Origin: Styela clava
Lineage: Eukaryota
Direction of reading: 5' to 3'
Assembly: GCF_964204865.1 (NCBI RefSeq)
Contig: NC_135256.1
Span: 6,200,001-6,264,000 of the forward strand
Length of the DNA: 64,000 nucleotides
Positions 3,956 to 9,343 of the stretch are shown in pieces. A program made the position numbers and the translations under genes. The notes beneath the pieces are model-generated. The model searched no databases, was not told where the DNA came from, and saw nothing but the letters and a program-made list of their open reading frames with translations. Position 1 is the first letter of the stretch, and every line of letters begins with the position of its first letter.

Positions 3956-5294
3956 AATTTCTCTAACTACACTGCTGAGTTGGTAAATAATGTGAGATGA
4001 ATGTCAGATTCAACGCCAAATCGGTTTGAGGATTTTGATTTGATAAGCAACTCAACAAGCAGCACTTGCACAGATGCTAGAATAAGTTTGTTCAGTTGCT
4101 TGCTTTTTAAGTCAATCGGTGGAATAATCTTTGCTTTGCTTAATCTTTGCTTGCCTAAACTTTGCAATAAACGCATTGGTGTCACCTGCGTGCGCTGTTA
4201 TGTTACCTTTGATAACTTGACCGGGCCAAAGGTATCAATGATGTTACTGCCTGTTCACCTGGTCGTTTTGGAAGATCGAATAAATATAGTCCTATAGTGA
4301 GCAAAATCGCAACTATTCGGCACTTTGATCGCTTTCTCTACCTCCAGCATATCCTAAATGAAGCTGAAACAGCTATCTTTAGTTTTCTGCATCAGTAATA
4401 CCTGATTTCCAATGGAACGACAACTTTGAATCTTATTCACTCCAGGTTCTTCCATCATCAAGTCCATGCATCGGAAACAAATCACTGGCTAACTAATCCC
4501 ATACCCGACATGGACTGGTAACTGGACGAGAGGACGTGGTTCGCCATATGATAACGAGGTCTTATATCTTTCCTCTCCCACAGGATGAATATGCGAATTC
4601 CATGCTTATGAATCCCAAACCATGTCGATTACCGAAACAGACTCCAGATTTACCCCAAAAACAATCAAATGTACCTGTTGTTATATTTTCCGCATGCCAA
4701 GAAATGCTGATTAGACAATGTGATACAGCAAAAAAGATACATTGCTTTAAAATATAGCTGAACTAGCTTCCCAAAAATGCATCATTCCCTCATATTTAAA
4801 ACATACCACAAGCTATTCCAGTTTTTTGAGATAGTATTCCATTTTAATCTAACTTTGCTATCTAGACCTCGAGCAACGCATGTAACTAAACAATACAAAT
4901 TTCCTTTCTACACAGTTTATTGCACAAATATATACAATTTCTAGATCTTTTTAACAAATAGATAACAGAAATATGGCAAAACCAGATAGCAATGCAGCTA
5001 GAGTCACCACAAAACTCAAAACAGATTGCTATCAGATTTTACACAAACTTTAGAAAACAGTAAGAATCCTTACACCCAACTTATCTGCACCAAATATTCA
5101 CCCCAAAAAACAAACTCACAATCAATTAAACCGAATAATTGTAAGTCAATATGACTAAAACTCGATTAATTCTCATCTTTTCCTACATATTTATAGACAG
5201 GAAAAGATGAAATTGGTTAAACAGCGCCTTGTGAGATGGACATATTAACATTATGGATTTTAGACTTTAAAACTGATTAAAAAAAATTTGAACG

Positions 5295-5418
5295 ATTTTC
5301 GAGTTCTTTGAGACAATATTATATTATGTGTATATTTAGAAAATTTTCTGAGTTATTATATTTTCGAGTTCTTTGAGACAATATTATATTATGTGTATAT
5401 TTAGAAAATTTTCTGAGT
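5295..5418. repeat. Perfect 59-bp direct repeat (65-bp period) in the SELENOK 3'UTR
   Basis: attttcgagttctttgagacaatattatattatgtgtatatttagaaaattttctgagt at 5295-5353 and 5360-5418. Confidence 0.9.
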
Positions 5419-5484
5419 AAAGATTACAGAGTAGTTCAAACAAAAACAGAGCAGCAATACACAACTTTAGACTTTTTACAAATT

Positions 5485-5566
5485 GTTCGCACAGAGGTTG
5501 TCAACTACATTGGGCTCCGATTGGAGTTGAACAACGCAGCGTCATTATTTATGTTTGTGGTCTAAC
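5485..5566 (-). promoter_or_regulatory. SECIS element (type II) of SELENOK
   Basis: Minus strand reads AUGAC-GCUGCGUUG-UUC-AA-CUCC(AAUC)GGAG-CC-CAAUGUAGU-UGAC: AUGA/GA core (5545-5541 and 5503-5500), 9-bp helix II with G.U pairs, unpaired AA, apical ministem. Helix I (guu..caca/ugug..aac) is weaker. Confidence 0.88.
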
Positions 5567-5676
5567 ATAACTCCATGCTGAAATGCGGGGGCCAGGTGTA
5601 TGTAATCCATGTCAACCTGGCCCCAGGCCCACTGGGGTTGCTAACCACGAAGGGTTAACAACCTACCAGTGAGCAT

Positions 5677-8600
5677 TTACCTTCCTCATCCGCCTCCAGC
5701 CGCGGGTGGGGGACTGGGTGAACCAGCCCCGCCCCTAAATCCACCCATTCTTCTCCTTGGACCACCGGGTCCTCCTGGCCCACTGCAAAAAAAAAATTTC
5801 AGCATATAATAAAGGATAGGGTAGGATTTAACATTGGTAATAATGGTGGTAACTGAAAGACATTATGCCGTCTTGATCATGCACTAAACCGATGATATGC
5901 AGTCTGATGGACAGTTCAAATCCGTAACCAGTTGTATGACTTGTTTGGTGAAGGAAGCCATTAGTGACCGACAATCCTCTTACATATATCAAAATCGTCA
6001 ATTCGAAAAGTTAACATATTGATTGATAACAAACAGCCTGCTGATTTAGACAGGGACAGTGAAACTTCTCTGTGAATGGGGTTACATAAATTCTAGATTC
6101 TGGTTTTAAAATAGTTTGTTTGCAGCTTGCAGGCATATGACCTGATGAGCCTCAACCAGAATTACCATATACAGGTGGTAACAGACAGATGCCAGTAATG
6201 GTGAGGCATTTAGAGGAATATCTTGTACATAAGCGATAATCATTCAATGTTTTCTATCGCCATACGATAGCAGTATATTTTTGACAAAAATAGGCAGAGA
6301 AGCAGTAGATTTCAAGCATGCAACAGGTTCCTAATACCCGATTTAACCATACGACAACTTTATTTTTCAAAAGCCCATGTCCCCTGGATTCATAACATAA
6401 ATTCGAATGTACTAAATATCCCATAAAATTCTCTTATCGTGCTACATATGTGGGTGAGCAGTGAGCACCATTCCAAAAAAAAAAATAACACCCATGGAAA
6501 ATTCACCCATATTCTAAGTAAATATTCAAAATTGCGACTTATATAAAACACAGTCTAATAATAAAAAAACCTACCTTCCAGGCCTACTGGAATAACTTGA
6601 ATCCATTCCTCGTCCTTTGCTTGTTAAATCTGGTTGAATCATTGTCTGGAAACTGGTGAAACAAGAATAATTAATTTTTGGTGAGGGACTATTTGTTACC
6701 TGGGCAGCCAAACTAGAGTAAAGTTAAGTGGAAGGCATACAGATTCATGAAGGCTGGAAATGAAAGAAATTATCAAATTGAAAGCTCAAGTGATACCTTC
6801 AGAAAATATGTCTGAGTTTCGTTTCAAGCCTTGATTGGAGAGTTATTTCATAACTAGGGACGCCCAGGCAAGTTTATTTGAATAGCTTAATCTCAATCCA
6901 AAATTAATAATAACAGTCTTAAAAACATAGAGAAATCTTTCCATTTGCAGGGAAATCATTACCAGGTAAAAAGAGCATTACTGATTAATCTGACAAAACA
7001 TAAGAACCATCCTGATTATAGATTATTATGATTGACAGGCATGCAATATGATAGCATTTACATATTTATCTCAGGGGAGAGGAGAGCCGATAAGACGACC
7101 TAATCATATGGCAAACCACGGCCTCTCATCCAATTACCAGTCGATGTCGGGTATAGGATTAGTCAGCCATGTATTTGTTTTCGGAAGTATGAACTTGATG
7201 GTGGAGGAAGCCGTAACCGACCAGCGGTTACATGAACCACCTTACGACAACGAGGAGAAGAGTCTAGCAATCCTCTCGCACATAGCTATCCCAGCATGGG
7301 ATTCAAACATGCAAATCCACGCGAAGTAATCAGAAGTATGGTGGCGAGCGTATTCCTAGCACTTAGCACGATGCGCCACACCGCTGAGATGATCAATAAT
7401 AATTCTGATCAATGGTCAATAATGATTACATCGAAATATATTATAAAGGTTTTTTGAATTATTGAAGCAAAGGAACATTTGTAATGAGCTAGATTTGCAC
7501 CATGCATAATAAATATAATAAACTTACAATAAAACAACAACATTAACAAGACCCCAAAATAAATCATAGACAATGGAAACTCTCCATGGCGATTGTTGCG
7601 TCAATGATTGTCCTGGGAAAGAAAAGCCTCGTTTAATTCAAAATAAAAGTAAAATCACAATAGAGAAATGTTCGAAAATCACACTCCTTTTTCACCTTAC
7701 ATACGCATTTGAACATTGTATATTGCTATCAAAATCAGTTCAAATGCAGTGGCCAATGTTGTATACAAAAGCACTTCTGCAGGTCCACTCAATATTATTC
7801 ATAAGTCAGTACAAGAAATAGCATTCCGGTCCAGATTCAAATTGAAATATCGGTAATGCAAAATTTTGCAAATGTACTCATTTATAAGTATAAGTTTATT
7901 TTGACTCAATAAAAGATGAAAAATTAATTGATAAAAACAAAATAAATAAAACTGAGGCAAAATTTGTAAATAATCTGTAGCTTATATCTATAAGCATATG
8001 TGACATTTTTATATTATGGGAAAATTTATGTTGCAAATGAAACTGAAATGATAGTTGTGGATGTTCAGTTAGTTAACCAGTTACAAATTAATACAATTCA
8101 ATAAATATCCATCTAACAGGGTGTTTTGCATTTTTGATTGCGTACAGAAAATTTTTCGAATTGTTAGCAGATGAGCATTATTATTGTATGAGAAAGTGAA
8201 AAGTTTTGCATTTTAAGGAAAGGCTAGGCTTGTGTCAAATCAAAAATCACCAATTATGCACTTATTAAATTAGTAATAATCTTGACATGTTTTTACCAGA
8301 TGTTATTTAAAAACTGTTATTCACTGTATCGATCTATCACAAGTTATAAGTTTCATTAACTAAACTTGTAAGCACCATTTTTAATTTACTAACTTGATCT
8401 ATTCATGTCTTGGTTCATAAGTATAAGTTTATTTTTTGACTCCATAATCAGCATAGAATAATTAATAATCAGACAATAAGATAATTGATAAGAACAAAAT
8501 AAATAAAACTGATTACTAAATCGGGACGCAAACAGACCCTATTTGTTGCACATTATAGAAATGACTGTTATATACAATCACGGTTATAGGATTATGACTA

Positions 8601-9223
8601 GGCTATAAAAAAACAAAGGTGGACCGATCTAGAAACTGCGGCCATTTTGTAATTAACATACTGGTGCTGTCAAACTATATGCTACAGTACAACTGCTTTA
8701 CTGTACAAATATACAATAATTTGATGAAAACAAGATAATCAGAATCAAAGAAGAATTATATTTATTCTATTGTGACTTCAAATAAAAAAACATTCAACAT
8801 TAAAGTGTCTGTAATAAGTACGGTATTAAAATGACAGGTTCCTATTGCGAAAGAAGGATTGCTCTGCCATAGAGTCTACAACACCTTCTGATAAATGAAG
8901 AAAATAAAAGAAACAAATAAAAAAAGCAGAAACAGATAAATATTCTGATTCAGTTGTTTTCAAACTTTTTTGTGGGGTAGAATCACAATGAACATTCTGG
9001 GGGCACGAGGAACCCCTATAAAATTGATTATATGTATTTATTTCCCAGTATATAGCGTAATTATTATCATGGAATACGCCAAGTGAAAATTTGAAAAAAC
9101 AAATTCAGAAATTTAACGAGTCCGGACAAAACGGTTCATGGCCGTTCAGACTAAAAAATATTTATCTGCTCATTAAACTCATATTATATAGTAAAAAATC
9201 TTACCTCCTGCGACATAAGGCAT
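5677..9223 (-). CDS. SELENOK: Selenoprotein K, 95 aa, 4 coding exons (9223-9205, 7612-7528, 6652-6575, 5782-5677); UGA at 5688-5686 read as Sec
   Basis: Spliced: MPYVAGGQSLTQQSPWRVSIVYDLFWGLVNVVVLFFQTMIQPDLTSKGRGMDSSYSSRPGSGPGGPGGPRRRMGGFRGGAGSPSPPPAAGGG-U-GR*. QSPWR motif, single TM helix, G/P/R-rich tail and GGUGR end are SELENOK hallmarks. All introns GT-AG and in phase (288 nt total). SECIS downstream; AATAAA at about 4917-4922. Confidence 0.95.
7050..7385 (-). mobile_element. tRNA-derived SINE (same family as 10775-11123), in SELENOK intron 2
   Basis: Reverse complement aligns along the whole reference copy. Confidence 0.85.
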
Positions 9224-9343
9224 CCTGATTTTTTTCTAACTTGACCCACTACGAAGTATTAAATGTTTAGCTTCCCCTTTTTCGGTAGTTGCTTGACAAG
9301 AACCACCTCCACTCAAAGATACACACGTAAACAAATATCAGGA

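What the first reader, a model, noticed from the sequence alone, without database searches (positions are those of the whole stretch)
5485..9223. Complete selenoprotein K gene invisible to the ORF track
Seen: four short exons splice in phase to a 95-aa protein ending GGG-UGA-GGA-AGG-UAA, with a canonical type II SECIS 140 nt downstream. Established: SELENOK is an ER membrane protein with Sec as the third-last residue. Automated annotation would typically truncate it at the UGA or miss it.
Basis: partly seen in the sequence, partly recalled or inferred. Interest (0 to 1): 0.7.

Follow-up and report, generated by a model that had tools for sequence, protein, structure and literature searches.

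The report
Ordinary selenoprotein K gene, sea squirt
This is an ordinary, spliced, single-copy selenoprotein K gene, already catalogued for a sea squirt but three residues short, because its UGA codon, read there as a stop, likely encodes selenocysteine.

Summary
Confirmed, and ordinary. Four minus-strand exons (9223-9205, 7612-7528, 6652-6575, 5782-5677) give 95 codons ending Gly-UGA-Gly-Arg-UAA. Transcript-type contigs skip all three introns exactly and carry poly(A) at 4900. The exons match Pfam SelK_SelG. All 13 of 35 related loci holding the C-terminal motif have TGA at this position. A type II SECIS-like element starts 140 nt after the UGA; helix I is weak and Rfam misses it. The genome has tRNA-Sec and SepSecS.

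The gene is not hidden from annotation. The first 92 residues are identical to XP_039251033.2, 'selenoprotein K-like [Styela clava]', which ends at the UGA. Only an ORF scan misses it.

9 of 12 distinct relatives have a better-than-shuffled one at the same place. Such proximal stem-loops are already described for mammalian SELENOS and SELENOK (PMC6844570). Sec insertion itself is inferred, not measured.

The parts
9205..9223 (-). Coding part of exon 1 (ATG at 9223; 19 nt). The 5' UTR extends to about 9290-9310.
   Evidence: joint 7611/9204 (cut +1) in 4 of 4 runs and contig ends at 9288-9312
7528..7612 (-). Exon 2 (85 nt): W-R motif and most of the single predicted transmembrane helix
   Evidence: Kyte-Doolittle 19-residue maximum 2.06 from residue 18; Pfam PF10961 E=2.1e-06, above cut-off; joints
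6575..6652 (-). Exon 3 (78 nt)
   Evidence: (PF10961 positions 36-58, E=0.11)
5677..5782 (-). Coding part of exon 4 (106 nt): Gly/Pro/Arg-rich tail, UGA at 5688-5686, then Gly-Arg and UAA at 5679-5677
5686..5688 (-). In-frame UGA, inferred selenocysteine codon (residue 93 of 95)
   Evidence: TGA at the same place in 13 of 13 related loci holding the motif
5627..5674 (-). Proximal stem-loop 1: 20 predicted pairs, -30.7 kcal/mol, starting 11 nt after the UGA
   Evidence: z -6.7 for the first 50 nt of the UTR; pair probabilities 0.97-1.0
5589..5623 (-). Second GC-rich hairpin directly behind stem-loop 1
5500..5545 (-). Type II SECIS-like element: AUGAC core, 9-bp helix II, AA 12 nt after AUGA, 4-bp apical mini-helix, UGAC on the 3' side; helix I weak
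   Evidence: rank 1 of 18 matches (E=0.25) with a model built from 7 other SECIS candidates
4900..4921 (-). AATAAA signal (4921-4916) and poly(A) addition site at 4900; 3' UTR about 777 nt
   Evidence: 22-24 non-templated T before 4900 in X2 and X6 (two studies) while X11 runs on

Best explanation
This is a spliced, polyadenylated, single-copy selenoprotein K (SELENOK) gene whose UGA at codon 93 is likely read as selenocysteine with the help of the SECIS-like element 140 nt downstream, giving a predicted 95-residue single-pass ER membrane protein ending Sec-Gly-Arg. Shown: exon structure, splicing, poly(A) site, family membership, conservation of the UGA, tRNA-Sec and SepSecS in the genome. 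Inferred from family knowledge: SBP2/eEFSec-mediated recoding; ER location with a cytosolic Gly/Pro-rich tail; work as a partner in ERAD (p97, SELENOS, Derlin) and in DHHC6 palmitoylation. Failed recoding would give a 92-residue form, so both forms are probably made.
For: Splice joints in contigs; poly(A) at 4900. Three exons match PF10961 in order. 55-64% identity to 7 non-Styela homologs, with 28 invariant columns in the 10-row alignment. 13 of 13 related loci with the C-terminal motif have TGA followed by Gly(-Arg)-stop. 117 of 120 listed database homologs end at the Gly-Gly before this position. SECIS unique and stable in the window; the one SECIS variant listed in other individuals turns a G-U pair into G-C. 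tRNA-Sec with anticodon TCA and SepSecS exons are in the genome. One locus only. Intron 2 donor at the same codon position in 21 of 29 related loci with the exon 2 motif, many of them near-identical to each other. Function from review PMC9344019 (passages).
Against: No direct measure of Sec insertion. Rfam SECIS models give no hit here, though RF00031 found nothing over its cut-off in the whole genome or in 8 related loci, so it is insensitive. My own model gives only E=0.25. Helix I is not predicted and the whole 81-nt region folds no better than shuffles (z -0.99; the 61-nt core z -2.12). My pattern found a SECIS in only 5 of 12 relatives. No homolog bearing an explicit U was seen in the protein searches. 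SBP2, eEFSec and PSTK were not searched. The runs are only guessed to be RNA.
Confidence: 0.96

Rival explanations
1. The UGA is a true stop, and the gene makes only a 92-residue Sec-less SELENOK homolog, as the database record has it. The SECIS-like element would be a relic or chance.
For: The database protein ends there. Rfam finds no SECIS. Helix I is weak. Sec-less SelK/SelG homologs exist in some lineages (recalled, not tested).
Against: The stop is UGA, never UAA or UAG, and is followed by Gly(-Arg)-stop in 13 of 13 related loci holding the motif. The SECIS core, helix II and AA are intact and very unlikely by chance. The Sec machinery found is present.
Confidence: 0.03
2. The exon chain is an artefact of reading by eye, or the locus is a pseudogene.
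For: Each exon is short and exons 3 and 4 alone score under the Pfam cut-off.
Against: Contigs skip exactly these introns; the product is identical over 92 of 92 residues to a database protein; it is the only copy found.
Confidence: 0.005

Closest known systems
XP_039251033.2, selenoprotein K-like [Styela clava] (P0005)
   Same: Identical over all 92 residues to the window's spliced product up to the UGA; XP_039251033.1 (P0002) differs at one residue.
   Different: As held in this collection it lacks the last three residues (Sec-Gly-Arg). Whether the cut is NCBI's or the collection's handling of U was not checked at source; P0085 looks as if U were deleted rather than the chain cut, which points to the record.
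Metazoan SELENOK (SelK/SelG, Pfam PF10961), e.g. Ciona H2XU60 (P0012) and mammalian SELENOK
   Same: Size about 95 aa, one hydrophobic helix, Gly/Pro-rich tail, R-R-M-G motif, Sec position third from the end; 61% identity to the Ciona protein.
   Different: In mammals an intron lies right after the stop codon and the 3' UTR is a separate exon (PMC3316567, passage). Here UGA, stop and SECIS are in one unbroken last exon.
Proximal stem-loop (PSL/SL1) of SELENOS and SELENOK mRNAs; Sec redefinition element (SRE) of SELENON
   Same: A hairpin a few nt after a near-terminal UGA (9 nt in human SELENOS, PMC3628699; 11 nt here). A PSL is predicted for mammalian SelK (PMC6844570 section 13).
   Different: The mammalian SelK PSL has 8 bp and SELENOS 14 bp; this one has 20 bp and a second hairpin behind it. 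In cells the SELENOS PSL could be replaced by a linear spacer, so its structure may not matter.

Membership tests
SELENOK (SelK/SelG) | Match to the family profile PF10961 | tested here: met
   Exon 2 alone 28.7 bits against a cut-off of 23.3; exons 3 and 4 match the following profile positions weakly; all 120 listed homologs carry PF10961
SELENOK (SelK/SelG) | Short protein with one transmembrane helix near the N-terminus | tested here: met
   95 aa; hydropathy peak 2.06 over residues 18-36. Hydropathy only, no topology predictor
SELENOK (SelK/SelG) | Gly/Pro-rich, basic C-terminal tail | tested here: met
   15 Gly, 8 Pro, 6 Arg after residue 50
SELENOK (SelK/SelG) | In-frame UGA second or third from the C-terminus, aligned with orthologs | tested here: met
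   UGA at 93 of 95; TGA at the same place in 13 of 13 related loci holding the motif, of 35 fetched
Eukaryotic selenoprotein gene | SECIS in the 3' UTR of the same transcript: AUGA/GA core, helix II, apical AA | tested here: met
   on the same contig as the UGA; top match of an independent model, though E=0.25
Eukaryotic selenoprotein gene | SECIS helix I and recognition by a curated model | tested here: inconclusive
   Helix I not formed in the predicted structure; no Rfam hit, but RF00031 is insensitive in this genome and in relatives. SECISearch3 not available
Eukaryotic selenoprotein gene | Sec machinery in the genome: tRNA-Sec and SepSecS | tested here: met
Eukaryotic selenoprotein gene | SBP2, eEFSec, PSTK in the genome | not tested
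   not searched
Eukaryotic selenoprotein gene | Sec actually inserted at the UGA | not testable with these tools
   needs 75Se labelling, mass spectrometry or ribosome profiling
SELENOK (SelK/SelG) | ER location; partner of p97/SELENOS/Derlin and DHHC6 | not testable with these tools
   from review PMC9344019; a SELENOS-like locus under the Pfam cut-off exists at G000:C4
SRE / proximal stem-loop | Stable hairpin within about 12 nt downstream of the Sec UGA, conserved in position | tested here: met
   9 of 12 distinct relatives at p<=0.05 against 60 shuffles; the 6-12 nt interval was chosen
SRE / proximal stem-loop | Changes Sec insertion when mutated | not testable with these tools
   needs a reporter assay

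The most novel reading that the evidence does not exclude
The hairpin 11 nt after the UGA is an ancient, position-conserved recoding element of animal SELENOK mRNAs, here in an unusually long double-hairpin form, that stalls the ribosome at the UGA and sets the ratio of full-length (Sec) to 92-residue truncated protein.
Probability: 0.3. Interest if true: 0.35.

Novelty: already known. Interest (0 to 1): 0.1.

Why it matters
It matters little. It corrects one database entry by three residues, a known and widespread kind of error: 117 of 120 listed homologs end at the same place, and ascidian SelK misannotation was reported in PMC2874816. The one usable lead is the very stable post-UGA hairpin, a strong natural test case for the unsettled question of whether proximal stem-loops help or hinder Sec insertion near the C-terminus (PMC3628699 and PMC6844570 reached different results for SELENOS).

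Tried and rejected
Rfam scan of the whole window at gathering scores: 0 hits. E-value scan of 5300-5800: 5 chance hits, no SECIS family. RF00031 over the genome: 1 sub-threshold hit elsewhere, L016. These were read as insensitivity, not absence. An alternative SECIS pairing that I first read by eye (AUGAC with a downstream GAA, 18 nt to the AA) was dropped because the predicted fold gives the 12-nt canonical one. Paralogs: three other weak PF10961 matches are not found with the protein itself, so they were rejected. No run holding the stretch is on record as RNA ('no RNA holder listed'); the runs used are guessed RNA, and their spliced and polyadenylated contigs are what I rely on. The search of 50%-identity representatives added nothing: of 146 new proteins 78 end Pro..Gly-Gly, 2 end with a Cys-Gly motif, 66 otherwise. 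The earlier-findings look-up returned nothing. Paper searches listed no paper on this species' selenoproteins or on invertebrate SELENOK proximal stem-loops; the library lacks most subscription journals. Shchedrina et al. 2011 is not held.

Full report
Verdict. The finding is real and ordinary: a SELENOK gene that is already in the databases under its right name, cut short at the Sec codon.

Observation. On the minus strand four coding exons (9223-9205, 7612-7528, 6652-6575, 5782-5677) are separated by GT-AG introns of 1592, 875 and 792 nt. They join to 288 nt: 95 codons and UAA, with one in-frame UGA at codon 93. Contigs of four public runs, guessed to be RNA and from four studies, skip these introns at the predicted borders: introns 1 and 2 in 4 of 4 runs, intron 3 in 3 of 4; one contig crosses all four exons. 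In two further runs from two studies a contig ends at 4900 in 22-24 non-templated T, just past AATAAA at 4921, while a third run that looks genomic goes on. The transcript therefore spans about 9310 to 4900.

Identity. Exon 2 alone passes the Pfam SelK_SelG cut-off, and exons 3 and 4 match the following parts of the profile weakly. A search with the exon 4 region returned P0002, whose cluster holds XP_039251033.2, 'selenoprotein K-like [Styela clava]'. That record is identical over all 92 residues to the window's product up to the UGA, so the window most likely comes from that ascidian. A profile search found 270 homologs and listed 120, all with PF10961. Of the 120, 117 end at the Gly-Gly that precedes the UGA, one ends Gly-Cys-Gly-Arg and two were classed otherwise. 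I could not check whether the truncation is in the source records or made by the collection. The gene is single-copy by protein and DNA search of the genome.

The UGA. Of 35 related loci from metagenome contigs, 13 hold the C-terminal motif; the pattern allowed any stop or Cys, and all 13 have TGA followed by Gly-Arg-stop or Gly-stop. The intron 2 donor lies at the same codon position in 21 of 29 loci with the exon 2 motif; six others are spliced there and two look unrelated; many rows are near-duplicates. The genome has a tRNA-Sec with anticodon TCA and six SepSecS exon matches at one locus. SBP2, eEFSec and PSTK were not searched.

The SECIS. AUGAC begins at 5545, 140 nt after the UGA. It is followed by a 9-bp helix II, AA at 12 nt from AUGA, a 4-bp apical mini-helix and UGAC on the 3' side, which is the type II layout (layout criteria recalled). 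It is the only hit on the minus strand in my stricter scan, with 0.1 hits per shuffled 64 kb and none as strong in 10 shuffles. Two runs carry a variant that turns a G-U pair of helix II into G-C. A covariance model built from 7 other SECIS candidates, without the window's, ranks it first of 18 matches but only at E=0.25; five of those candidates were picked with the same pattern, so the test is not fully independent. Against: helix I is not predicted, the 81-nt region as a whole folds no better than shuffles (z -0.99), and Rfam has no hit. Rfam's model is insensitive here: nothing over its cut-off in the whole genome or in 8 related loci. My pattern found a SECIS in 5 of 12 relatives and Rfam suggested a sixth.

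How it likely works. Shown: transcription, splicing, polyadenylation, family, conserved UGA. Inferred: SBP2 binds the SECIS and eEFSec delivers Sec-tRNA to the UGA, giving a 95-residue single-pass ER protein with Sec third from the end; termination at the UGA gives a 92-residue form. Recoding is inefficient for most selenoprotein mRNAs (PMC8704476, passages). Mammalian SELENOK works with p97, SELENOS and Derlin in ERAD and with DHHC6 in palmitoylation (PMC9344019, passages); this is carried over by homology only. One difference from mammals: there the 3' UTR is a separate exon spliced right after the stop (PMC3316567, passage); here contigs run unbroken from 5782 to 5360.

A 20-pair stem-loop (5674-5627, -30.7 kcal/mol) begins 11 nt after the UGA, with a second hairpin behind it (5623-5589). 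The region has z -5.16, with 0 of 200 shuffles folding as well, and pair probabilities of 0.97-1.0 for the first stem in the wider context. It is unique in the genome. The only variant listed within the first hairpin lies in its loop (5648); one search did not show all of its rows. Among the 12 distinct relatives (L045 dropped as a duplicate), 9 have a hairpin starting 6-12 nt after the UGA at p<=0.05 against 60 shuffles, and in 8 no other sampled place of the downstream sequence is as strong; L020, L022 and L030 fail the shuffle test and L017 and L019 are weak. Caveats: the interval was chosen, relatives are not independent, and G+C near the stop favours the second control. This kind of element is in print: SL1/PSL of SELENOS 9 nt after the UGA (PMC3628699, passages), and predicted PSLs for six of seven other mammalian selenoproteins with C-terminal Sec, SelK's among them (PMC6844570, section 13 read). 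The latter found that a linear spacer could replace the SELENOS PSL, which lowers the odds that the structure itself acts. My paper searches listed nothing on invertebrate SELENOK hairpins, but the library is incomplete and I did not see that paper's supplement.

Novelty and score. The gene is known, the family is well studied and the annotation error is a documented one, including for Ciona SelK (PMC2874816, passages). Interest 0.1. The most novel open reading is a conserved recoding hairpin: probability 0.3, interest 0.35 if true.

Noticed in passing
window 7060-7390 (intron 2, minus strand); a similar stretch begins near 4500-4570 in the opposite orientation: A high-copy interspersed repeat of about 330 nt: 5198 first-look candidates, 40 scored, about 84% identity, with very high summed contig depth in three runs. 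By eye it has A-box and B-box-like motifs, so it is likely a tRNA-derived SINE.
   Followed up: partly
window 5295-5418: A 65-nt tandem duplication in the 3' UTR (1.9 copies, 100% match) that is polymorphic: X6 skips 65 nt; X5 and X8 skip 101 nt.
   Followed up: partly
window 5698-5712 (exon 4) and exon 3/4 joint: Coding differences among individuals or close relatives: P85A and A88M in run X8, and Ser/Thr at residue 61 (P0002 against P0005). None touches the UGA.
   Followed up: partly
G000:C6:8370628-8370713 (L006); G000:C6:6753356-6759570: Single tRNA-Sec gene over the cut-off and a SepSecS gene.
   Followed up: partly
G000:C14:5322952-5323015 (L016): A SECIS-like element (RF00031, 31.9 bits, under the cut-off) that probably marks another selenoprotein gene.
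   Followed up: no
G000:C4:20579874-20582241 (L052-L054): Three collinear weak matches to Pfam Selenoprotein_S, probably the SELENOS gene.
   Followed up: no
G000:C3:23.49-23.76 Mb and C9:21.07-21.20 Mb: Large clusters of near-identical tRNA-like genes scoring under the tRNA-Sec cut-off (43 matches); probably tandem tRNA arrays.
   Followed up: no
L019:960-1025: A SECIS candidate in a related SELENOK transcript with U rather than A before the UGA core and a perfect 10-bp helix II.
   Followed up: no
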